64,000 bases of DNA from Mobula hypostoma. Its lineage: Eukaryota. The stretch covers positions 22,816,001 through 22,880,000 of the forward strand of contig NC_086108.1 of NCBI RefSeq assembly GCF_963921235.1, read 5' to 3'. This document shows positions 1 through 47,700 of this stretch, in pieces. The position numbers and the translations under genes are program-made. The first letter of the stretch is position 1. Every line of letters begins with the position of its first letter. Under the pieces are notes generated by a model that worked only from the letters and a program-made list of their open reading frames with translations, did not search any database and was not told the DNA's origin.

Positions 1-2060
1 CACATTTCTTCCGTACCTTTCCCTGAGAACATCTGTTCCCAATTTAAGCTTCCAAGTTCCTGCCTGATAGCCTCATAATTCCCCTTACTCCAATTAAACA
101 CTTTTCTAACTTGTCTGTTCCTATCTCTCTCCAATGCTATTGTAAAGGAGATAGAATTATGATCACTATCTCCAAAATGCTCTCCCACTGAGAGATCTGA
201 CACCCGACCAGGTTCATTTCCCAATACCAAATTAAGTACAATCTCTCCTCTTGTTGGCTTATCTACATATTGTGTCAAGAAACCTTCCTGAATACACCTA
301 ACAAACTCTACCCCATCTAAACCGTTTGCTCTAGGGAGATACCAATCGATATTTGGGAAATTAAAATCTCCCACCACGCCAACTCTGATTATTACTCCTT
401 TTCAGCATCTGTTTCCCTATCTGCTCCTCGATATCCCTGTTACTACTGGGCGGTCTATAAAAATCACCCAGTAGAATTATTGACCCCTTCCTGTTCCTAA
501 CCTCCACCCACAGAGACTCCGTAGACAATCCCTCCATGACATTCACCTTTTCTGCAGCCATGACACTATCTCTGATCAACAGTGCCATGCCCCACCTCTT
601 TTGTCTCTCTCCCTATCCTTTCTGAAACACCAAAACCCGGCACTTGAAGTAACCATTCCTGTCCCTGAGCCATCCAAGTCTCCGTAATGGCCACCACATC
701 ATAGCTCTAAGGTCATCCGCTTTGTTCACAATACTCCTTGTGTTAAAACAGACACATCTCAAACCGTCGGTCTGAGCATGTCCCTTCTTTATCACCTACC
801 TATCCTCCCTCACACACTGTCTACAAGCTTTCTCTATTTGTGAGCCAACCGCCTCTTCCCCAGTCTCTTCAATTCGGTTCCCACCCCCAACAATTCTAAT
901 TTAAACTCTCCCCAGTAGCCTTAGCAAACCTTCCCGCCAGGATATTGGCCCCCCTGGGATTCAAGTGCAACCTGTCCTTTTTGTACAGGTCACACCTGCC
1001 CCAAAACAGGTCCCAATGATCCAGAAATCTGAATCCCCGCCCCGTGCTCCAATCCCTCAGCCACGCATTTATCCTCCACCTCAATGTCACGTGGCACAGG
1101 CAGTAATCCCAAGATTACTACCTTTGCGGTCCTGCTTCTTAACTTCCTTCCTAGCTCCCTGTAGCCTGTTTTCAGGACCTTTTCCCTTTTCCTACCTATG
1201 TCGTTGGTACCAATATGTACTACGACCTCTGGCTGTTCTCCTTCCCACTTCAAGATATTGTGGACGCAATCAGAAACATCCTGGACCTTGGCACCTGGAA
1301 GGGAAACTACCATCCGAGTTTCTTTCCTGCATCCACAGAATCGCCTGTCTGACCCCCTAACTATAGAGTCCCCTATCACTGCTGCCTTTCTCTTCCTTTC
1401 CCTACCCTTCTGAGCCACAGGGACAGACTCTGTGCCAGCGGCACGGCCACTGTTGCTTCCCCCAGGTAGGCTGTCCCTCCCCCAACAGTACTCAAAACAG
1501 GAGTACTTATTGTTCAGGGGGATAGCCACAGGGGTATTCTCTAGTACCTGACTCTTCCCTTCTCTCTCCTGACTGTGACCCACTTGTCCGTCTCCCGAGG
1601 CCCCGGAGCGACCGCCTGCCTATGACTCCTTTCTATCACCTCCTTGCTCTCCCTGACCAGACGAAAGTCATCGAGCTGCAACTCCAGTTCCCTAGTGTGG
1701 TCCCTTAGGAGCTGCAGCTCGACACACTGGGTGCAGATATGGCCATCCGGGAGGCTGTGAGACTCCAGGACTTCCCACATCTGACACCGAGCACAGAACA
1801 CCAGCCTCACACACATACTTCCTCCTTTCCGCAAATAACACAGGTGAACCTACCTTGCCTCGTTCCATTACCACCCAAGCCCGTTGAGCCAAAGCCCTCA
1901 CACTCCACTGGCTGTTCCAAATGCTGCCTGCTGGATATGGCGGTCTTCTTTTTAAACTTTTTTCGCTCTACTGGCTGACATCACGTGCCTGCACAGTACT
2001 GCCTCTCTTTACCCTGAGTAGTAAAATGCCTTCTCTCCGAAAATCCTTAGCCATTCCACT
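1..2060 (-). mobile_element. CR1-clade LINE, 5' portion (5'UTR, ORF1, APE endonuclease start of ORF2); continues off the left edge
   Basis: Minus-strand ORF fragments: ORF1 pieces at 896-1834; ORF2 endonuclease start 'LRCVCFNTRSIVNKADDL' (613-795) and 'STESLWVEVRNRKGSIILLGDFYRPP' (361-588). Broken by frameshifts and stops. Confidence 0.9.
896..1834 (-). pseudogene. CR1 ORF1: N-terminal Cys-rich zinc-finger/coiled-coil plus SGNH-hydrolase (esterase) domain, frameshifted
   Basis: CARCQM...HICTQCVELQLL (1541-1834); SGNH blocks AVIGDSIVRG, LPGAKV, HIGTNDI (990-1583) and KDRLHLN (896-1090). Confidence 0.88.
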
Positions 2061-2062
2061 CA

Positions 2063-2265
2063 CAGCCTTCTTGCTTCGAATCCTTCTAAATTCCAGTGAG
2101 TACAGACCCAAAGCCATCAAACGTTCCTCATATGATAACCCTTTCATTTCTGGAATCATCCTTGTGAACCTCCTCTGAATCCTCTCAATGCCAGTTCATC
2201 TTTTCTTAGATATGGAGGCCAAAGCTGTTCACAGTCTTTGAGGTGGGGCCTCACAATGCCTTATA
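2063..2265 (-). mobile_element. CR1 ORF2 C-terminal fragment
   Basis: MIPEMKGLSYEERLMALGLYSLEFRR, a typical CR1 ORF2 C-terminal motif, also seen in the 8633-9013 ORF. Confidence 0.8.
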
Positions 2266-2269
2266 AAAA

Positions 2270-2935
2270 TGGTTACACGAGCAAATCCTGGATTTCAATG
2301 CTACTGTGAATGGGTTTACAACAATACGAGCAGACAGAGTTAATCCACAGTGCAGTAAGAGGAAGTGAGGTGGGCTTGCTGTGCTTGTGAACAATAGCTC
2401 GTGTATTCCTGGTCACATTTCGGTGAAAGAACAAATCTGCAGTCTAGACATTGAACCGCTTGCTGTAAGTTTGCGTCTGTTTTGTCTACCACGTGGGTTC
2501 AGCCATGCCAGATTGCTCTTGTCTACATTCAGCCTTCCTGATGCAGTCCCGATACTGCATGTGATGTCATACACGCTACTATTGCGAGTCTTCAGACTCA
2601 ACACCCCAGTGTGTTTATTGCAGTACTGGGAGACTTTAACCACATTTCTCTCTCAACAACCTGACCCATCTTTGAACAGTTTGTCAAGTGCCATACAAGA
2701 GAAAATAAAACACTGGATCTCTTGTAAGCAAATGTTGAAGATGCATACAGCTCCACAGCTCTTCCCCACCCACCCCCCACCACCACTTCAAAGATCAGAT
2801 CACAACCTGATTCACTTCATGCTCTTATATAAGCCCAAAGTACTGCAACAGCTAGTTACCACCAAGACAGTAATAATATGGTCTCCAGAGGCCATCGAGG
2901 CCTTGAAGGGCTGCTTTGAGGTTACAGACTGGACC
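2270..2935 (+). mobile_element. Rex1/Babar- or L2-like LINE endonuclease fragment
   Basis: Frame-broken APE motifs: RADR, 'IEPLAVSLRLFCLPRGFS', GDFNH (ggagactttaaccac), LDL, 'RSDHNLI', 'EALKGCFEVTDW'. Confidence 0.7.
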
Positions 2936-3890
2936 TAGAGCATGGATCAGTATATGGAATTATAACGCTGTAGTCATTATGGAGACATGGCTGTCACAAG
3001 GCAGGAATGGCTGCTAGATGCTTCAGGGTTTAGATGCTTCAAAAGAGATGGAGGGAGGTAAAAGAGTTGAGGGAGGGGCATTCCTCATCAGGGATCGTAT
3101 TATGGCTGCAGAAAAGGAGGATGTTGTGGAGGGATTGTCTACTGAGTCATTGTGGGTGTATGTCAGAAACAGGAAGGGAACAGTCACTCCATTGGGAGTA
3201 TTCTACAGATGCCCAATAGAAACAGAGATACCAAAGAACAGATCAGGAACAGATTTTGCAAAGGTGCAAAAGTAACGGTTGTTGTCATGGGTGATTGTAA
3301 TGTCACTAATATTGATTAGCACCTCCCTGGTGCTAAAGATTTAGATGGGGCAGAATTTATGTGTGCCCAGAAAGGATTTCTGACAGTATGCAGACAGGCA
3401 AACTAGAGAGGCTATACTGGATCTGATACTAAGCAATGAACTTGGTCAGGTGACAGATCTCTCGGTGCATAACTACAATTCTTTTACATTCGACTGGGAT
3501 AGGAGCAGATGATATGGAAAAGTACTTAATTTGCAAAAATTGATTATGATGCTATTAGACAGGAACTTGGGACATAAATTGGGAATCGATGTACTCAGGG
3601 AAATGCACATTGGAAATGTGGAGATTGTTTAAGGAGCTCTTGCAGGGGGTTCTGGATAGGTTGAGACAGGGAAAGGATAGTAGGGTGAAGGAATCATGGT
3701 TGACATGAGAATTCAAACATCCATTCAGAGGAATAAAGAAGCTTACTTAAGGTATAGGAAGCAAAGATCAGACAGGGCGCTAGAAAGTTACAAGGTAGCT
3801 AGCAAGGAGATTATGAAGGGATTTAGGAGAGCTAGAAGGGTACATGAGAAGGACTTGGCGAGTCAGATTAAGGAAAATCTCCAAGCTATT
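2936..3890 (+). mobile_element. CR1 ORF2 endonuclease/linker fragment
   Basis: 'GLSTESLWVYVRNRKGTVTPLGVFYR' (3018-3275), similar to the 361-588 peptide; 'RRARRVHEKDLASQIKEN' (3696-3880). Confidence 0.82.
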
Positions 3891-6508
3891 TGCACGTGGA
3901 GTGAGCTGGAGACAGTTCCATGTGTACTTTATGCACCAGTTTTAAACAAATGGGGCCTATTAGGACTTGTCAGTGGAGCGAGAGATCATTGGAGTGAGTT
4001 GGAGACAATTCCTTGTGGCCTTTGATGCCAAGTTTAAAAAACGACTGGGGTTTATTGAGATTTGTCTGCAGAGTAGAAGATTGCTTGGGTTAATAATAAC
4101 TAGGGTTAATTAGCAAGGGCCAACAGAAGAGGTGGGGGTTGAACAGAACAGCCATTGTTGGAGCAGCCTTTGTGTGAGTGGATAGTGTTGGAGTGGTCAG
4201 CATTGGCTCAACAGCTTTGGACGAGAACAGGCTAGAACTTAAATTTAAGAAGTTAGAAGCATAATGTGTAGGCAGGATGATAGTTTGGGCTTTGGAATGC
4301 TCCTCCTGTGAGATGCAGGATTTCAGGGTACATAATGGTCTCCCTGATGGCTACATCTGCAGGAAATGCTTCAGCTCCTGACTGACACGGTTAATGATTG
4401 GAGCTAGAGCTGTTCGCACTCTGGACCACCTGGGAGGCTGAAATCTTCATAGATGAGTCTTTTACTGAGGTGGTCATACTCAGAGCACAGGCTTCAGATA
4501 GTAGATGGGTGACCACCAGCAGAAGCAAGGGGAGTAAGCAGTCAGTGCAGAGTTCCCCTGTGGCTATTTCCCTCAGCAACAAGTATACCCCTTTGGATAC
4601 TGCTGGGGGAGAGATGACCTATCATGGTACAGTAGCAGCAGCCAGGCCAGTGGCACTGTGGCCAGCTCTGAGGCTCAGCAGGGAAGGGTAAAGTCAGGCA
4701 GGGCGATAATGATAGGGGACTTGATAATTTGGGGGATGGGCAAGAGATTCTGTGGGTCCAAAAGAGATGTCAGGATTGTGTGTTGCCTAGGTGTTAGGGT
4801 CCAGGAAGCCTTGGAGTAGCTGCAGAAAATTCTCAAGAGGGAGGGTGAGCAACTAGAGGTTATAGTGCACAATGGCACCAATGCTGTAGGTAGAAAGGGG
4901 GGAGAGGTCCTGTACAGTGAGTATAGGGAGTTAGGGAAAAGACTGAAGAGCAGGGTCTCCAGGGTAGCGATCTCTGTATTACCCCCAGTGCTATATGTTA
5001 GTCAGGGCAGGAATAAGATAATAGTACAGATAAATGAGTGGCTGAGGAGGTGGAGCAGGGGACAGGGTTTCAGATTTCAGGATATTTGGGATCTCTTCTG
5101 TGGAAAGTACTGTATGATCTGTACAAAAAGGATGGGTTACACCCAAGCTAAACGGGGACCAATATCATTGCAGGCAGGTTTGCTCGAGCTGTTAGGGAGG
5201 GTTTAAACTGTTAATAGGGGATGGGAACTGGAATGATAGGGCTGAGGATGGGGCAGTTGGTATACAAGATGATGCAATGTATAGTGAGACTGTGATGATG
5301 GGCAGGCATATTATAGGGCAACATTGCAGTCAGTGGCATGAGCTGAAGTATAACATAGGGGCAAAATCAAAAAGGGTGATGAATACAGGACTAAAGGTGT
5401 TATATGTGAATGCACACAGTATATGGACCAAGGTAGATGATCTTGTGCGGTTAGAGATTGTCAGGTATGATATACTATGAGAGTCACTGAGACATGGCTG
5501 AAAGAAATCAAGGTTGGGAGTTTATGTCAAAAGGACAGGCAGGTAGGCAGAGGTGGTGGGTGGCTCTGTCAGTAAAAATTGAGAGTTAACACAGAATCAG
5601 AGGATGTAGAATCCATGTGGGTAGAGTTCAGAAACTGCGAGGGTAAAAAGACACTGATGGAAATTACAGAAAGACCCCAGGACTGTTACAATGGGAGAGA
5701 GAAAAGGCATGTATAAAGGGCAATGTTACTATAATCATTCGGGATTTCAATATGCAGGGAGATTGGGAAAATCAATTTGCTGCTGGATTCCAAGACAGGA
5801 AAACTGTAGGAGTGCCTACAAGATAGATTTTTAGAGCAGCTTGTGAGTTGAGCCCACTAGGGGAGAGGAAATTCTGGATTGGGTGCTGTGTGATGAACCA
5901 GATTTGATTAGGGAGCTGAAGGTAAAGGAACACCTAAGAATCAGTGATCATAATGTGATATAAATTGCCTTGCAGTTTGAGAGGGAGAAGATACAGTTAG
6001 ATGTATCTGTAATACAGTGGAGTAAGGGGGATTTCAGAGGCATGAGAAAGGACCTGGCCAAGGTTGAGTAGGAAGGGACACTAGTGGGGATGATAGCGGA
6101 ACAACAATGGCTAGAGTTTCTGGGAGTAATTTGAAAGGCACAGGATAGATATATCCCAAAGATGAAGTATTCTAAAGAGAAGATGAAGCAATCTTGGGTG
6201 ACAAGGGAAATAAAAGACAACAGAAAAGCAAAACAGAGGGCATTTATAATATAACAAAAATAGTGTGAATTTAGAGCATTGGGAAGCTTTTAAAAACCAC
6301 CAGAAGGCAACTAAAAAGCCATAAGGAGGGAAAAGATGAAATATAAAGTAAACTAGTTAAAAATATGAAAGAGGATACAACACTTTTTCAGATAAAGAAT
6401 AAAAGAGAGGCGAGAGTGGACATCATGCCTTTGGAAAATGATACTGGAGAGGTAGTAATGTGAGACAACTAAATAGTTGATTAACTTACTAAGTATTTTG
6501 CGTTAGTC

Positions 6509-7697
6509 CGGCGGTCCCCAACCACCGGGCCGCAAGGCATGCGCTACTGGGCCGCGAGGAAACGATATGATTTGGCGATTGGAGTCAGCGGCACCTTTCC
6601 CTGTCACGCCCACTGTTGAGCCATTACGCATGCGGGGTTATTACCCGCGCGTCATCCACGGCAGCGCGGGAAGAAGATCAACTCCTCGAGCTTGCAAATG
6701 ACGACGGGCTGAAAAGTCTGTTTGACATAACATCTCTGCCGGCATTCTGGATCAAAGTCAAGGCTAAATATCCTGAGATAGTCAGGAAAGCACTGAAAAC
6801 GTTGCTTCCATTTCCAACATATCTCTGCAATGAATGCAACGAAAACTAAATTGTGGAATAGACTGGACATAAGGATCCCCCTTCGAGTATCACTGTCTCC
6901 CATCACCCCTCGATGGCACCGCCTTGTTGCAGGGAACAAGTATTCAGCCCAGGGCTCCCACTGATTCAGCGATATTGGTGTGTTGCAATGATTTTATACG
7001 TTCATACGGGGAAAATATGCGCTGTGTGTTTGATAAACAAACGTTACTTAAAATGTTATAATGCTATTATAAGTGACTTATATAACCATGTAACAATTAC
7101 GGCACGGAAATAGGCGATCTCTGCCCTTCTAATCCGTGCCGAATGCTACTCTCACCTAGTCCCACCGACCTGCACTCAGGCCATAACCCTCCATTCCTTT
7201 CCTGTCCATATACCTATCCAATTTTTCTTTAAATGATAATATCGAACCTTCCTCTACCACTTCTACTGGAAGTTCGTTCAACACTTCAAGCTCCCCTGTC
7301 CTCCCCTGGTAATTGTCTTATCGCTATATTCATGCGAGGAAAATATGCGCTGTGTATTTAGTATTAAATTCGTTAGATAAACCCTTTTAGAAACGAAATT
7401 GATTGTATTAGCCACTTATCACCTATATTCCGGTCGTGATTAATACCCGCCGCCGCCGCCAACAGAATCGGCAAAAACAATTTTTAAGAAATCGGCACGG
7501 AAACGCATACGCAAGATACGCATGCGCATTGGTGCCCGCGCAAGGCTTCATGGTCATTGTAGTCTTCCACGGGGTAAACCCAACGTATTTGACTGCTACT
7601 CTTGTACGTTAGCAACCCTACCCCCCGGTGGGCCGGTCCGCAAGAATATTGTCAAAATGAAACCGGTCCGCAGTACGAAAAAGGTTGGGGACCCCTG
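6509..7697 (+). mobile_element. Internally deleted hAT DNA transposon (Buster/Charlie-like), non-autonomous
   Basis: Exact 8-bp TSD CGTTAGTC at 6501-6508 and 7698-7705; 15-bp TIRs CGGCGGTCCCCAACC and reverse complement CAGGGGTCCCCAACC (13/15 match); hAT C-terminal dimerisation remnant 'SLPAFWIKVKAKYPEIVRKALKTLLPFPTYLC' (6616-6849). Confidence 0.93.
7081..7285 (-). mobile_element. CR1-type 3' tail fragment nested inside the hAT element
   Basis: 'ccataaccctccattcctttcctgtccatatacctatcc...cctctaccacttctactggaagttcgttc' resembles the reverse-strand CR1 3' ends at about 13000-13150, 14100-14300 and 31440-31630. Confidence 0.65.
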
Positions 7698-10026
7698 CGT
7701 TAGTCTACACTGTTGAAGACACTTGCAGAATGCCATAAGTTCGAGAGTTTTGGGGCAGAAGTGAGTGCTGTTTCTATTACTAAGGAGAAGATGCATGGGA
7801 AGCTGAAAAATCTGAAGGTAGGTAAGTCATCCGGACCAGATGGACTACACCTGAGGGTTCTAAAAGAGGTGGCTGAAAAGGTTGTGGAGGTATTGGTAAT
7901 AATCTTTCAAGAATCACTGGATTCTGGAATGTTTTTGGAGGACTGGAAAATTGCAAATATCACTCCACTCTTTAAGAAAGGAAGGAGGCAGAAGAAAGGA
8001 AATTATAGGCCAGTTAGCCTCACTTCATTGGTTGGGAAGACTTTGGAGTCAGTTATTAAGGATGAGGTTTCAGGGTACTTGGAGACACATGAAGAAGTTG
8101 GCCAATGTCAGCATGGTTTCCTTAAGGGGAGATCTTGCCTGACAAATCTGTTGTAATTCTTTGAGGATGTAGCAGTCTAGATAGACAGAGGAGATTCAGT
8201 GGATATTGTTTACTTGGATTTTCAGAAGGCCTTTGACAAGATGCCGTACATGAAGTTGCTTATGAAGGTAAGAGCCCATGGTATTAAAGGAAATATGCTA
8301 GCATAGATGGAAGGAGGCAGCGAGTGGGAATAATGGGGGCCTTTTCTGGTTGGCTGCTGACAACAAGTTGTGTTCCACATGAGGCAGTAATTGGACCTCT
8401 TCTTTTCATGTTGTAAGTCAACTATCTGGGTGATGGAATTGATGGCCTTTTGGCCAAGATTGCAGATGATGCAAAGATAGGTGGAGGGGTAGGTATTGTT
8501 GAGGAAGTAGGGAGTCTACAGAAGGATTTAGATTGGGAGAATGGGCAAAGCAGTGGCAGATGGAATAGCATGTATGGAAGAGTATGGTCATGCATTTTGG
8601 GAGAAGGAATAAAGGTGTACACTATTTTCTAAGTGGGAAAAAAAACTGAGAAATCAGAGGTGCAAAGGGACTTGGAAGTCCGTATGCAGGATTCCCTAAA
8701 GGTTAATTTGCAGGTTGAGTTGATGGTAAGAAAGGCAAATGCAATGTTAGCATTCATTTTGAGAGGACTAAAAAATAAGAGCAAGGATGTGATGCTGAGG
8801 CTTTATAAGCCATTGGTGAGGCTGCACCTGGAGTGTTGTGATCAATTTTTGGCCCCTTATCTAAGAAAAGATATGCTGACAATGGAAAGGGTCCAAAGGA
8901 GGTTCACAAGAATGATTCCGGGAATGAAAGGGTTAACATATCAGGAGCGTTTGGTGGCTTTGCGACTGAACTCACTGGAGTTTAGAAGAATGAGTGGGGA
9001 GGGATCTTATTGAAACCTATTTAATATTGAAATGTCTAGACAGTCTGGATGTGGAGAGGATGTTTTCTATAGTGGATGAGCCTAGGATCAGAGGGCACAG
9101 CCTCAGAATAGAGGGATGTCCATTTAAAACAGAGATGAGAAGGAATTTCTTTTGCCAAAGGTGGTGAATCTGTGATACGCATTGCCACAGATGGCAGTGG
9201 AGGTCAAGATATTGATTACATGTAAAGCAGAGTTGATAGGAGAATGTGGTTGAGAGGGATAATAAATCGACCATGATGGAATGGTGGAGCAGAGTCAATG
9301 GGCCAAGTGTCCTAATTCTGCTCCTTTAATCTTATGGTGTGTGTGAAAATATCCAGAATGAATGTAGGACTGCTCATGGACAACAGACGAAGCATTTGAC
9401 TAGAGTTTGAAGACAAATGGGTCTTTAATCAATGTTTTGCTTTGTATTCACCAGTGAGAGTGACCTTCATGAATGTGAGGTCAGTGTAGAACATGCTGAT
9501 ATGCTGGAAAATGTTCAGGTTAGGAAAGAGCATTTGAATTGCTGTACCACACCAAGGTAACATAGAAGGATAGAAAACACCTCCTTTGATGAGTGGTCAG
9601 ACCAAATAGGTTAAACTTAGTTAGAACTATGCACTTGAAAAGCTTCCTTAACTAAAGAACTTGGATATCTGGAATTCATTCTGAAATGTTGAGACTAGTC
9701 AATTTACACTTTTAAATAGATTTTTCGTGGCAGGTTTAAGAGGAATAGGTGCTCAAGTTGGGAATGTGGAAATAAGACTTAGAATTATCTACATTTCACA
9801 AGGAATGATGTGTCAGTTGCTAAGTGATCTGCTGTCAGACCTGTGTTTCTGATCAGTTCAAGTTCAAATTTAATGTTATTCAACCGCTAACCAAAACAAT
9901 GTTCCTCTGGACCAAGGTGCACAGCACAGTGTATATAACTCACACACATTATATAAAGTATTATTACCACAAACAATAGAATGTATTCCAGAAGATTGAC
10001 ATTTAGTGTAAGGTGCAATTACAAGA

Positions 10027-12559: not shown

Positions 12560-12828
12560 CTGTAAGGAATTTGTAAGTCCTCCCCATGGAATGTGTGGGT
12601 TTCCTCCAGGGGCTCTGGTTTCTCCATGGAATGTGTGGGTTTCCTCTGGGGGCTCCAGTTTCCCCATGGAATGTGTGAGTTTCCTCCCACAGTTCAGATA
12701 CATACCGGTTAGTAGGTTAATTGGTGATTGTAAATTGTCCCTTGATGAGGCTAGGGTTAAATCAGAGGTTGCTGGCTGGCACGGCTCCAAGGGCCCATTC
12801 TACACTTTACTTCTAAATAAATAGATAA
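12560..12828 (+). mobile_element. SINE fragment (V-SINE-like core) with an internal 40-bp triplication
   Basis: Motif 'tgtgtgggtttcctcc...gctccagtttcc...cctcccacagt' followed by 'taattggtgattgtaaattgtcc' and an A-rich end 'taaataaatagataa'; 40-bp units start at 12581, 12621 and 12661. Confidence 0.6.
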
Positions 12829-18421: not shown

Positions 18422-18513
18422 AGCTCCAACCTGCTGATCCCCACCTTGTCGCCTGCCCTAACAACAGCTCCAACCTGCTGATCCCTGCCCTGTCACCTGC
18501 CCTAACAACAGCT
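18422..18513. repeat. 44-bp tandem duplication
   Basis: agctccaacctgctgatccc...cctgccctaacaac occurs at 18422 and 18466 with a few mismatches. Confidence 0.9.
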
Positions 18514-19139: not shown

Positions 19140-19715
19140 TCATCATAGCAGGCAGGAGTGGAAGAGGGTGTGCATGGAAGTGAGGATAAGCTCCAATTGC
19201 ATGCACCTCAATTAGCCTATGACAACAAGTCCACCTCCTGGCATTCACATATGGCTTAGTTACTAAGCCTGGCAGAACTATTTCTACTGACAGGAGGAGG
19301 GGCAAAAGCGGGTTACTGACACCTTATAATCAGTCACTTTGGGCAGATGGGGTTTGTCAGCCATGGTTGGCATCTCTCCTAGGAGAAGGAAAACTCTTAA
19401 CCTCAAATTTTTGCTGCCTTGTGGCTGTACCCACTCATGAGGAAGGTTTTAGGAGTAAACCCTCTCTGGAATTAGAACCCCTAAGGCAGTCCTCTGTTGA
19501 GTTCAACACTGTCTGGAAACTCCTGCAATACTGCTGGTGCCAAACCATGTCGGTCTCTGCTGTTCCTCTGGATTCATCAGCTGTGTGGACAGGGTGAGCC
19601 TGCTACACGGACAACAGCTTGCTCTCCGTACCGTACTGCCCTGGCTTGCATACTAGCTTGCTTATCACATGACAGTCCATGGTTGACCCTGACCAAAGGA
19701 GGGCCTTTGGGCCTT
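19140..19715 (+). mobile_element. Possible RTE-related non-coding element / 5'UTR remnant
   Basis: Motif 'ctaggagaaggaaaactc' and its context resemble RTE-type 5' regions as I recall them; there is no coding support. Confidence 0.35.
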
Positions 19716-19766
19716 GTAGAAATCTGAGAGTGATACAGCATTGAAACAAGCTGTTTAGTCCAACAA

Positions 19767-20003
19767 GTCCACACTGACTATCAGTCAGCTATCTCCACAA
19801 ATCCATACACTAATCCCACTTCTTACCTGGTAGGGAACCGTCGGTGATCAGGAGGGCCGAGGTTCCAGGACGAGGCTATCCCATTGCACTTCGGGTGTGC
19901 TGACGCCTGCCATATCCCCAAATGCGGGATATTCGACTGCATAATTTGTCCACACTGACTATCAGTCAGCTATCTCCACAAATCCATACACTAATCCCAC
20001 TTC
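19767..20003. repeat. Exact 56-bp direct repeat (target-site duplication) flanking the U1 copy
   Basis: gtccacactgactatcagtcagctatctccacaaatccatacactaatcccacttc is identical at 19767-19822 and 19948-20003. Confidence 0.95.
19822..19949 (+). pseudogene. RNU1: U1 snRNA retropseudogene, divergent variant, truncated at the Sm site (no stem-loop IV)
   Basis: CTTACCTGG 5' end, TGATCA SL1 loop (U1-70K site), ATTGCAC SL2 loop (U1A site), CCCCAAATG SL3, and 'tcgactgcataatttgt' leading into the Sm site, all collinear with vertebrate U1. Confidence 0.95.
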
Positions 20004-20399
20004 ATGCTCCACAAGAGCATGGAAACATACTGCCCACGTGGTGAGAGTCTGGAATTCTCCAGCAAGAGTTTTACAGAGGCTACATCATTGGGAGTATTAA
20101 ATGAGGTGGTCAATAAACTTTTGAAAGGTTTAGGGAACTTAAGAAGACTAAAACTGTGCCCAGTACTCCCAAGTGTGTGGTCTCAGCAACAGTCAGAACC
20201 ACTGCAACAAATATTCTGTTTCTAAACCTCGCCCCTTGCAGTAATGGCCCATATGCTGTTTGCCTCAGACACATAGAGTTATCCAGCACAGAAACAAACC
20301 CTACAGCTCAACTCATCTATGTCGATAAAGGTGCCTACCTTTTCTATCTATGTATCTGTCTAAACATCTTACTAATTACTTGCTATAGGTTTCTGCTGG

Positions 20400-44700: not shown

Positions 44701-47700
44701 CATCTTACCATTACATTCCAACCCTATGAACTGTCGCACGCACCTTACCATTCCAAACCATCCCAATGAACTGACGTTAGCTTTCCTACCCCATGATCTG
44801 ACCCACTCACCTTAACATTGCAACCCCATGAACTGACCCACTCACATTACTGCTCCAACCCAACCCCATGAACTGACCCACTCATCTTACCATTCCAACC
44901 CCATGAACTAACCCACTCAGCTTAACACTCCAACCCCATGAACTGACCCATTCACCATACCATTCAACTCCAACCCCATGAACTGACCCACTTACCATTC
45001 CGCTCCAATCCCAGGAAATGACCCACTCCGCTTACCACTCCAACCCAATGAACTGACCAACTCACCTTACCACTCCAACCCCATGAACTGACCCACTCAC
45101 CTTACTATTCCAACCCCATGAACTGACCCACTCACCATTCCACTCCAACCCCATGAACTGATCCATTCACCTTACCATCCCATTCCAACCCCATGAACTA
45201 ACCTACTCACTTTACCATCCCAAACCAACCCTATGAACTGATCCACTCACCTTTCCATTCCACTCTAACCCCATGAACTGGCCACTCATCTTACCATTCC
45301 ATTCCAACCCCATGAACTGACGCACTCACCTTACTATCCCAACCCCAGGAAGTGACCCACTCACCTTACCATTCCAATCCAACCCAATGAACTGACCCAC
45401 TCAGCATACCATTCGAAACCAACCACAAGAACTGACCCACTCACCTTACCATTCCATTCCAATCCCCATGAACTGACCTACTCAGCTTACCACTCCAACC
45501 CCATGAACTGACCCACTCACCTTACCATTCCAAAACCATGAAATGACCCACTCAGCTTACCATTCCAACCCCATGAACTGACCCACTCATCTTACCATTC
45601 CAACACCATGAACTGACCCATTCACCATTCCCTCCAACCCCATGAACTGAACCACTCAACTTACACATCAACCCCATGAACTGACCCACTCACCTTACCA
45701 TCCCAACCCCAGGAAGTGACCCACTCACCTTACCATTCCAATCCACCCCAATGAACTGACCCACTCAGCATACCATTCGAAACCAACCACAAGAACTGAC
45801 CCACTCACCTTACCATTCCATTCCAATCCCCATGAACTGACCTACTCAGCTTACCACTCCAACCACATGAACCGACCCACTCACCTTACCATTCCACACC
45901 GACCCCACGAACTGACCCACTCACCTGACCATTCCATCCCCCTAAACTGACCCACTCACCTTACCATTCGAACCGCATGAACTGACCAACTCACCTTTCC
46001 ACTCCAACCCCATGAACTGACCCACTTACCATTCCGCTCCAACCCCAGGAAATGACCCACTCCGCTTACCACTCCAACCCAATGAACTGACCAACTCACC
46101 TTACCACTCCAACCCCATGAACTGACCCACTCACCTTACTATTCCAACCCCATGAACTGACCCACTCACCATTCCACTCCAACCCCATGAACTTATCCAT
46201 TCACCTTACCATCCTATTCCAACCCCATGAACTGACCTACTCACTTTACCATCCCAACCCAACCCCATGAACTGATCCACTCACCTTTCCACTCCAATCC
46301 CATGTACTGGCCACTCATCTTACCATTCCATTCCAATCCCATGAACTGACGCACTCACCTTATCATCCCAACCCCAGGAATGACCCACTCACCTTACCAT
46401 TCCATTCCAATCCCCATGAACTGACCCACTCACCTTACCACTCCAACCCAGCCCCATTAAATGACCCACTCACCTTACCATTCCAACCCAATGAACTGAC
46501 CTACTCAGCTTACCACTCCAACCACATGAACCGACCCACTCACTTTACCATTCCAAAGCCATGAAATGACCCACTCAGCTTACCACTCCAACCCCATGAA
46601 CTGACCCACTCACCATTCCACTCCAACCCCATGAACTGGCCACTCATCTTACCATTCCATTCCAATCCCATGAACTGACGCACTAACCTTACCATCCCAA
46701 CCCCATGAACTGACACCCTCACCTTACCATTCCACACCGGACCCCATGAACTGACCCACTCACCTGACCATTCCATCCCCCTAAACTGACCCACTCACCT
46801 TACCATTCGAACCGCATGAACTGACCAACTCACCTTTCCACTCCAACCCCATGAACTGACCCACTTACCATTCCGCTCCAACCCCAGGAAATGACCCACT
46901 CCGCTTACCACTCCAACCCAATGAACTGACCAACTCACCTTACCACTCCAACCCCATGAACTGACCCACTCACCTTACTATTCCAAGCCCATGAACTGAC
47001 CCACTCACCATTCCACTCCAACTCCATGAACTGATCCATTCACCTTACCATCCTATTCCAACTCCATGAACTGACCTACTCACTTTACCATCCCAACCCA
47101 ACCCCATGAACTGATCCACTCACCTTTCCACTCCAATCACATGTACTGGCCACTCATCTTACCATTCCATTCCAATCCCATGAACTGACGCACTCACCTT
47201 ACCATCCCAACCCCAGGAAGTGACCCACTCACCTTACCATTCCAATCCAACCCAATGAACTGACCCACTCAGCTTACCATTCCAAACCAACCACAAGAAC
47301 TGACCCACTCACCTTACCATTCCATTCCAATCCCCATGAACTGACCCACTCACCTTACCACTCCAACCCAGCCTCATTAAATGACCCACTCACCTTACCA
47401 TTCCAACCCAATGAACTGACCTACTCAGCTTACCACTCCAACCACATGAACCGACCCACTCACTTTACCATTCCAAAGCCATGAAATGACCCACTCAGCT
47501 TACCACTCCAACCCCATGAACTGACCCACTCACCATTCCACTCCAACCCCATGAACTGGCCACTCATCTTACCATTCCATTCCAATCCCATGAACTGACG
47601 CACTAACCTTACCATCCCAACCCCATGAACTGACACCCTCACCTTACCATTCCACACCGGACCCCATGAACTGACCCACTCACCTGACCATTCCATCCCC

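What the first reader, a model, noticed from the sequence alone, without database searches (positions are those of the whole stretch)
19822..19949. The U1 copy derives from a divergent but structurally compensated U1 variant
Seen: stems differ strongly from canonical vertebrate U1 (compared from memory) yet still pair. SL1 reads GGAACC-g-TCGG...CCGA-GGTTCC versus human GGGAGATACC...GGTTTTCCC. SL3 has ATATCCC/GGGATAT, and SL2 closes with CCC/GGG around an intact ATTGCAC loop. The SL1 loop is GATCAGGAG rather than GATCACGAAG. Identical TSDs and retained CpGs leave little time for post-insertion decay. Inference: an expressed, germline-active variant U1 gene exists in this genome, possibly with altered U1-70K binding.
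Basis: partly seen in the sequence, partly recalled or inferred. Interest (0 to 1): 0.7.

Follow-up and report, generated by a model that had tools for sequence, protein, structure and literature searches.

The report
Retrocopy reveals second U1 RNA class
This truncated DNA copy of the splicing RNA U1, in what is likely a ray, carries a rebuilt first hairpin that also occurs in sequencing runs of related species, so it likely comes from a second U1 gene class of the kind known in zebrafish and frog eggs, but no RNA from that class has been shown.

Summary
The U1 copy is real (Rfam 96.9 bits). It covers U1 nt 4-131, stops inside the Sm site, has no SL4 or poly(A), and lies between identical 56-bp repeats: likely a tailless retrocopy. 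A second species label holds the same insertion.

SL1 is a real variant, not decay. The same SL1 occurs in runs of five organism labels; in one, a 52-nt unitig matches exactly at about ten times single-locus depth. Four runs also show another SL1 in the same register, differing by four compensatory pairs.

Corrections: the loop has 10 nt, not 9 (G33 and G36; A32 and G34 kept). SL2 equals the species' bulk U1. The quoted SL3 contains a rare letter (A19914), so only SL1 is variant. A parasite source is unlikely.

Not shown: a full gene with PSE, SL4 and 3' box; expression; germline specificity; which SL1 class is the major one; changed U1-70K binding. Variant U1 classes with differences in one stem-loop are known (zebrafish maternal U1). 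I found no print record for cartilaginous fish and no look-alike in this scan.

The parts
19767..19822 (+). First copy of the 56-bp direct repeat (inferred target site duplication); its last base C doubles as U1 nt 4
   Evidence: junction bridged in run X6 record 25, 19700-19864 with 2 differences
19822..19949 (+). U1 snRNA copy, nt 4-131 in human numbering with no net indel; lacks the first 3 nt, G132, SL4 and any poly(A)
19822..19830 (+). 5' splice-site pairing arm, nt 4-12, matches the Rfam consensus
19834..19866 (+). Variant stem-loop 1: 11 pairs, bulged G at 19840; the only class-defining part
   Evidence: same sequence in X2, X5, X10
19846..19855 (+). U1-70K loop, 10 nt: G28 A29 U30 C31 A32 G33 G34 A35 G36 G37; differs from human at 33 (C) and 36 (A)
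   Evidence: human bases from PMC4383343 passages
19867..19909 (+). Stem-loop 2 with U1A loop 19883-19892; same as the bulk U1 of this species
19910..19935 (+). Stem-loop 3; C19911 and A19914 are rare letters, the bulk has G at both
19944..19949 (+). Truncated Sm site (A126-U131); the last 2 nt (GT) are shared with the start of the second repeat, the inferred priming microhomology
19948..20003 (+). Second copy of the 56-bp direct repeat
   Evidence: junction bridged in run X6 record 29, 19855-20250 with 4 differences
19727..19778 (.). Old high-copy repeat into whose end the copy inserted (resembles a CR1/SINE tail; family name recalled, not tested)
   Evidence: summed depth 415-528 in X1 at 80% likeness against 11 for single-copy flank

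Best explanation
The element is a dead, 3'-truncated copy of U1 nt 4-131 between identical 56-bp repeats, likely made by reverse transcription in the germ line or early embryo from a likely multi-copy U1 paralog class that differs from another U1 class of the same lineage only in stem-loop 1. Inferred mechanism: a LINE-encoded enzyme nicked the target, the free DNA end paired with two bases (GU) of the single-stranded Sm site, copying ran to 3 nt short of the RNA's 5' end, and a second nick 56 bp away created the long duplication. The source class keeps the splice-site arm, SL2, SL3 and the main U1-70K contact bases (G28-A32, G34), so it would most likely form a working U1 snRNP. Its G36 would alter the A29-A36 loop-closing pair, with unknown effect. 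By analogy with zebrafish, frog and mouse it is most likely an oocyte/embryo-enriched isoform; that step is untested. Shown: anatomy, shared insertion, recurrence of this SL1, existence of a second SL1. Inferred: RNA template, priming, gene status, function, stage.
For: Anatomy. Insertion shared: both junctions bridged in X6 (organism E), 6 differences in 551 nt. SL1 recurs: X10 record 14, 19843-19894, 0 differences, depth 75.2 against 4.8-10.8 for long single-locus contigs of that run; X10 record 11, 2 of 49, depth 24.3, running 75 nt upstream; X2 record 17, 4 of 115, joining this SL1 to the ordinary G19911/G19914 SL3; X5 record 20, 1 of 88. Loose ends before 19822 end in the U1 5' letters ATA in X1 (4 contigs), X2 (1) and X10 (3). 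Second SL1: loose ends at 19865 in X6 (4 contigs), X16 (1), X23 (1) and X10 (3) read GGAGAGAC...GTTCTC. Compared by hand, the X10 form differs at 13 of 30 positions with the same length and bulge; pairs 19836/64, 19838/62, 19839/61 and 19841/60 change on both sides in all four, 19844/57 in X10 only. X10 record 14 ends at 19894, the last 31-mer containing 19864, as expected if two classes merge at 19865 (inference). SL4 follows the Sm site in other copies (X1, 8 contigs; X10, 3 contigs). In organism F the flank differs at 5 of 65 and the deep unitig at 0 of 52 (one-sided p 0.049). Tailless mechanism: PMC5322556. Isoform precedent: 10.1101/858944, PMC4291461.
Against: No listed contig joins this SL1 to SL4 with few differences; the two listed contigs that span 19822-19949 differ at 18 and 13 sites. 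Only 30 upstream letters are shown, so a PSE could not be examined; the upstream motif shared by X1 and X2 is not in X10's consensus. The tool warns that summed depth is no copy number. In X6 the summed depth over SL1 (58) equals that over SL3 (53), so minority status is not general. The second SL1 is seen only as loose ends of long contigs, with pair 19843/58 broken in all four, so those may be fossils. The conservation contrast weakens to p 0.107 when record 11 is added. X5's deepest U1 (depth 231) is of another type, so its matching contig (depth 2.2) may come from a trace organism. G36 is not fixed: A is read at 19854 in 96 of 253 summed depth in X1 and 5.5 of 58 in X6. The target fits neither TT/AAAA nor clearly the RTE signature, and 56 bp is far above the 7-18 bp usual for L1 and RTE.
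Confidence: 0.62

Rival explanations
1. This SL1 is simply the ordinary major U1 of this lineage, which replaced the older vertebrate-like SL1 by concerted evolution; the other SL1 survives as fossil copies.
For: The other SL1 is seen only as loose ends of long contigs and has a broken pair in all four runs. In X6 summed depth over SL1 and SL3 is alike, 58 and 53. snRNA families evolve concertedly (PMC4291461 passages).
Against: Summed depth rises sharply at 19865 in X1 (316, 929, 1911) and X10 (276, 686), and X10's exact SL1 unitig (75) is a third as deep as its SL2/SL3 unitig (228), which suggests other deep copies join there; depth is a weak measure.
Confidence: 0.2
2. The multi-copy SL1 class is not a gene family but an amplified pseudogene, satellite unit, or the U1 head of a SINEU-like or Tx1/Keno element.
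For: No intact gene was seen. SINEU elements and Tx1 elements carry U1 heads, and SINEU-2 exchanged an SL1 segment (PMC4494074 parts 1-2). One RNA-labelled contig with this SL1 starts at 19834 behind non-U1 letters (X16 record 14).
Against: A perfectly paired stem with at least four two-sided changes, an intact splice-site arm, A32 and G34 kept, and near identity between labels fit selection on a functional RNA. Contigs run from the U1 5' end through SL2 into SL3 (X2 record 17, X5 record 20). This copy has no element body or poly(A).
Confidence: 0.12
3. The source is as in the best explanation, but the insertion arose by break repair with a templated patch and a local 56-bp duplication, not by LINE target-primed reverse transcription.
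For: The duplication is unusually long, and the target lacks the L1 consensus and the RTE start-with-T signature. Microhomologies are only 1 and 2 nt.
Against: The insert begins 3 nt from the RNA's 5' end, carries no gene flank, and ends in a single-stranded region, the pattern of tailless retropseudogenes.
Confidence: 0.15
4. The copy came from a foreign organism such as a parasite.
For: SL1 differs strongly from the other SL1 class. In run X5 the matching contig sits beside a much deeper U1 of another type.
Against: SL2 is identical to the host's bulk U1 and SL3 differs at two sites; the SL1 class is present at many loci in runs that also hold the host flank. No exact match in metagenome contigs or viral contigs.
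Confidence: 0.02

Closest known systems
Zebrafish maternal-type versus somatic-type U1 (Pagano et al., bioRxiv 10.1101/858944; whole text read, figures and supplements not seen)
   Same: Two U1 classes in one genome; differences concentrated in one stem-loop (11 nt, all but one in one stem-loop), co-evolved stem pairs, unchanged splice-site arm.
   Different: Here about 13 differences in 30 nt of SL1. Egg-specific expression was measured in zebrafish and is untested here. Whether the same stem-loop is involved, or the classes are homologous, could not be seen.
Embryonic U1 isoforms of Xenopus, mouse, Drosophila, sea urchin (PMC4291461, passages)
   Same: Paralog classes coexisting with another U1 class.
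   Different: That paper says orthologous groups are usually detectable only within a genus; the taxonomic spread here is unknown because run labels are coded.
Human variant U1 snRNAs (vU1; PMC10870369, passages)
   Same: SL1 changes with possible effects on U1-70K binding (C25G raised binding fourfold without raising splicing).
   Different: Human vU1s are very weakly expressed and many have altered 5' arms; this SL1 is fully re-paired and shared between organism labels.
Tailless retropseudogenes (Noll et al. 2015, PMC5322556; passages, part 3 of 5, section 19)
   Same: 5'-complete, 3'-truncated in a single-stranded region, no poly(A), flanking duplication, 2-nt complementarity (reported range 2-18 nt).
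   Different: Duplication 56 bp, above their 8-35 bp screen; target unlike TT/WAAAAWW; they found such copies only in therian mammals and anole among vertebrates (5S and U2 screens; species list in a figure not seen).
SINEU and snRNA-headed Tx1 elements (Kojima 2015, PMC4494074; parts 1-2 of 5)
   Same: U1-derived retroposed sequence; two SL1 forms among U1 heads.
   Different: No element body, no poly(A) tail; a single solitary copy in this window.

Membership tests
U1 snRNA (RF00003) | Covariance-model score above gathering threshold | tested here: met
   96.9 against 69.5 bits
U1 snRNA (RF00003) | 5' splice-site arm, SL1 and SL2 loops, Sm site | tested here: met
   nt 4-12 intact, loops present, Sm site A126-U131 with G132 missing
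Functional U1 gene (this locus) | Complete 5' end, SL4, PSE upstream, 3' box downstream | tested here: not met
   First 3 nt and SL4 absent; both flanks are the duplicated target
Tailless retropseudogene | 5'-nearly complete, 3'-truncated by 10 nt or more, no poly(A) | tested here: met
   nt 4-131 of a 166-position model; criteria
Tailless retropseudogene | Truncation in a single-stranded region with 2-18 nt complementarity to the target | tested here: met
   Ends in the Sm site, 2 nt shared with the repeat
Tailless retropseudogene | TSD of 8-35 bp and L1-type target TT/WAAAAWW | tested here: not met
   56-bp repeat; target CCAACAA then GTCCAC. It works like one, but is not shown to be L1-made
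Tailless retropseudogene | Empty site in a relative confirming the duplication | tested here: inconclusive
   E holds the filled site; F covers only the right flank; no joints listed
Variant U1 paralog class | Same variant sequence at several loci and in related species | tested here: met
   X10 records 9-14, X2 record 17, X5 record 20, X1 records 1-3
Variant U1 paralog class | Coexists with a different U1 class | tested here: inconclusive
   Second SL1 seen as loose ends in 4 of 7 runs laid, but not as an intact gene
Variant U1 paralog class | Full-length source gene with PSE, SL4 and 3' box | not testable with these tools
   No genome held; loose ends limited to 30 letters
Maternal/embryonic-type U1 | Expression enriched in oocytes or early embryos | not testable with these tools
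   No listed holder on record as RNA; only contigs could be laid
SINEU / snRNA-headed Tx1 | Element body and poly(A) tail after the U1 head | tested here: not met
   U1 runs directly into the second repeat

The most novel reading that the evidence does not exclude
Rays carry a conserved, germline/maternal U1 gene class with a completely re-paired SL1 and an A36G change in the U1-70K loop. A separate egg-type U1 snRNP, so far measured as exclusive only in zebrafish, would then exist in cartilaginous fish too, ancestrally or by convergence, and germline retrocopies like this one would record its expression.
Probability: 0.3. Interest if true: 0.62.

Novelty: new member of a known kind. Interest (0 to 1): 0.38.

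Why it matters
If the class proves to be expressed in eggs or embryos, it extends maternal-type spliceosomal RNAs to cartilaginous fish and allows a test of whether dual U1 systems are ancient in jawed vertebrates. It also gives a natural SL1 variant (G33, G36, four or five swapped stem pairs) for testing U1-70K binding. The retrocopy adds a tailless snRNA copy with an unusually long duplication outside mammals and lizards. If the class is the lineage's ordinary U1, the finding reduces to a routine pseudogene with lineage-specific sequence.

Tried and rejected
Genome-wide U1 search: no genome held, so gene counts, PSE and 3' box were not examined.
Run search: no RNA holder listed; this is no evidence on expression.
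RNA-guessed runs X16 and X23: X23 has SL2/SL3 unitigs at depth 89-106 but only 6.6-12 over SL1. Lack of cover in contigs, with a silent human filter, is not counted for or against. The two RNA-guessed contigs that cover SL1 are longer than U1 or start inside it, so they do not show mature RNA.
Exact-pattern scans: 0 matches in metagenome contigs and viral contigs.
Other U1 5' ends in the window: only this one.
Empty site: no joint in any of 7 runs laid.
Enzyme signature: a T3 run lies 11-13 nt before the repeat, but the repeat starts with G, so the RTE signature (PMC6007223 passages; PMC13295347 abstract) is not met convincingly; no L1 target. No other long-spaced perfect repeat of this size within 1.5 kb spacing in 1-35760.
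Assembly artefact rejected: both junctions bridged in X6. X1 record 7 matches 19884-19977 exactly but has only 28 letters beyond the U1 end, under the tool's 31-letter rule.
My early reading that G19854 was private decay was dropped.
Taxon: not established by a tool. 'Ray' rests on recalled likeness of the repeats and on unchecked earlier notes; Pfam gave only weak retroelement domains in 3 of 6 frames scanned.
Literature: no paper on shark or ray U1 variants in the listings; the SL1 motif is printed in none. Subscription papers are not covered.

Full report
What is there. An Rfam scan of the whole window gives one hit, U1 (RF00003) at 19819-19970, 96.9 bits against a threshold of 69.5. The true U1 part is 19822-19949. 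Subtracting 19818 reproduces human numbering: G28-G38 in SL1 match the numbered bases in Kondo et al. (PMC4383343, passages) except at 33 and 36, and the Sm site falls at A126-U131 (that Sm numbering is recalled). The copy lacks the first three bases, ends inside the Sm site, and has no SL4 or poly(A). It lies between two identical 56-bp repeats, 19767-19822 and 19948-20003; shuffles give at most 15 nt. One base is shared between repeat and U1 at the 5' junction and two at the 3' junction. The target is the end of an old high-copy repeat (summed depth 415-528 against 11). The window is otherwise decayed retroelements and, from 35768, a 35-bp satellite. That the host is a ray rests on recalled likeness of its repeats and on unchecked earlier notes.

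Observation check. SL1 pairs as described: 11 pairs and one bulged G, z -3.63 with 0 of 200 shuffles as stable, pair probabilities 0.79-0.85. The loop has 10 nt, not 9. Eight CpGs remain against 1.5 expected. The whole copy (z -0.07) and SL2 alone (z +0.32) do not fold better than shuffles, so only SL1 is structurally notable.

The insertion is real and not brand new. No genome was held, so I used public runs. The search listed 24 runs from 14 studies and 12 organism labels; 13 held at least half of the 10 words and none was on record as RNA. I laid 7 of the 24, all as contigs, and the tables were cut: 32 of 189 and 23 of 70 records shown. X1 (organism A) holds the locus without differences in three pieces and may be the assembly's own sample. 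X6 (organism E) bridges both junctions, with 6 differences in 551 nt (1.1%, 95% interval 0.4-2.4%); two of them lie in the first repeat, so the pair differs at 2 of 56 sites there. The identical pair in A only bounds divergence below 6.4%. Depth arithmetic in X6 indicates that the orthologous copy shares C19911 and A19914.

SL2 and SL3 are ordinary. In X1 at 88% likeness no other letter reaches 4% at 19865-19910, where summed depth is 900-3400. At 19911 and 19914, G is read in 1622 and 1643 of 1675 in X1 and in every covering contig of X2, X5 and X10, and of X16 and X23. The quoted SL3 motif therefore contains a rare letter, and C19911 breaks a pair.

SL1 is a class, not decay. In X10 (organism F) a 52-nt unitig covering the loop, the 3' arm and half of SL2 matches with 0 differences at depth 75.2, while long single-locus contigs run at 4.8-10.8; another contig covers 19822-19870 with 2 differences at depth 24.3 and continues 75 nt upstream. 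X2 (B) has 19822-19936 with 4 differences, two of them 19911 and 19914, which links this SL1 to the ordinary SL3. X5 (D) has 19822-19909 with 1 difference, but at depth 2.2 beside a different U1 at depth 231, so it may be a trace organism. In X1 summed SL1 depth is 134-316 against 11 and in X6 41-92 against 3. The tool warns that depth is no copy number; I use it only to say several loci. Contigs that extend upstream end in the intact U1 5' letters in X1, X2 and X10. X1 and X2 share a 7-letter motif just upstream but X10 does not. In F the flank differs from the window at 5 of 65 sites and the deep unitig at 0 of 52 (p 0.049; p 0.107 with the second contig added), a weak hint of selection.

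A second SL1 exists. Loose ends at 19865 in X6, X16, X23 and X10, 4 of the 7 runs laid, read GGAGAGAC...GTTCTC. Compared by hand with the window, the X10 consensus has the same length and bulge and differs at 13 of 30 positions. Four pairs change on both sides and stay Watson-Crick in all four loose ends, a fifth only in X10; one pair is broken in all four. This is real covariation between paralogs. Summed depth rises at 19865 in X1 and X10, and X10's exact unitig ends at 19894, where a de Bruijn path would end if classes merge at 19865 (inference). Against a simple minor-class reading, X6 shows similar depth over SL1 (58) and SL3 (53), and the second SL1 was seen only on long contigs that may be fossils. 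Which class is the major U1 is open.

U1-70K loop. In the human structure C31 and A32 stack on the RRM, C33 and G34 are held between Arg191 and Lys138 with salt bridges to their phosphates, G28 flips out, and A29 pairs with A36 to close the loop. A32C plus G34U weakens binding about 200-fold (PMC9371917, passages). This class keeps G28-A32, G34, A35 and G37. Position 33 is lower case in the Rfam consensus. G36 would change the closing pair; it is shared by the deep unitig of F, while A36 is also read in A (96 of 253) and E (5.5 of 58) at 80% likeness. Altered binding is possible but untested. In a human variant an SL1 change raised binding fourfold without improving splicing (PMC10870369, passages).

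How it arose. The anatomy matches tailless retropseudogenes: near-complete 5' end, truncation in a single-stranded region, no tail, 2-18 nt complementarity, explained by internal priming (PMC5322556; passages, part 3, section 19). It departs in the 56-bp duplication (their screen took 8-35 bp; L1 and RTE mostly give 7-18 bp, PMC6007223 passages) and in a target unlike the L1 consensus. The enzyme is unknown and repair-based templated insertion remains a rival. An inherited RNA-templated copy implies the RNA was present in germ line or early embryo at that time (inference); it does not imply germline specificity.

Comparison with what is known. Zebrafish has maternal and somatic U1 classes differing at 11 nt, all but one in one stem-loop, with unchanged splice-site arm (10.1101/858944, whole text; figures and supplements not seen, and they may show whether the classes are homologous). 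Embryonic U1 isoforms are also reported for Xenopus, mouse, fly and sea urchin (PMC4291461, passages). Crocodilian SINEU elements carry U1 heads with two SL1 forms (PMC4494074, parts 1-2 of 5), but this copy has no body or tail. Listings showed no paper on shark or ray U1 variants, and the SL1 motif was printed in none. Earlier notes of this scan hold no look-alike.

Verdict. The variant is confined to SL1, the loop was miscounted, and gene status, expression, stage and binding are unshown. It is a new member of two known kinds, a variant U1 paralog class and a tailless snRNA retrocopy. Interest 0.38; the maternal-class reading has probability about 0.3.

Noticed in passing
window 35768-63997: A 35-bp satellite of about 764 copies (75% matches) with extreme strand skew (GC skew about -0.7) and signs of higher-order repeats, such as variants at 46424, 47344 and 48264 spaced 920 bp.
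   Followed up: no
window 6509-7695: A roughly 1.19-kb CpG-rich insert with 11-bp terminal inverted repeats (6513-6523, 7683-7693) and a perfect flanking direct repeat (6499-6508, 7696-7705) inside a decayed LINE; looks like a young hAT-type DNA transposon (family recalled).
   Followed up: partly
window about 19290-19710: A short element resembling an RTE-derived mini-retroposon (recalled; earlier notes describe such a family in this genome) lies 60 bp upstream of the first repeat; no clear duplication found around it.
   Followed up: partly
run X10, loose end before 19853: A third SL1 form that shares the window's 3' arm but has a different 5' arm and loop start; possibly an older or decayed relative of the class.
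   Followed up: no
run X23 record 20 and run X1 record 2: Contigs spanning 19822-19949 with 13 and 18 differences, none listed in 19833-19851; they may be a subclass with this SL1 5' arm and divergent SL2/SL3, or old copies.
   Followed up: no
runs X16 record 15 and X23 record 21: RNA-guessed contigs of organisms E and A both carry a decayed U1 of the other SL1 type with 286 letters before 19865, probably the same U1 pseudogene inside a longer transcript.
   Followed up: no
run X5: The deepest U1 (depth 231) has different SL2 and Sm-site flanks from the host type seen at depth 2-3, suggesting a mixed sample.
   Followed up: no
window 12581-12700 and 18422-18509: Local tandem duplications: three copies of 40 nt and two copies of 44 nt.
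   Followed up: no
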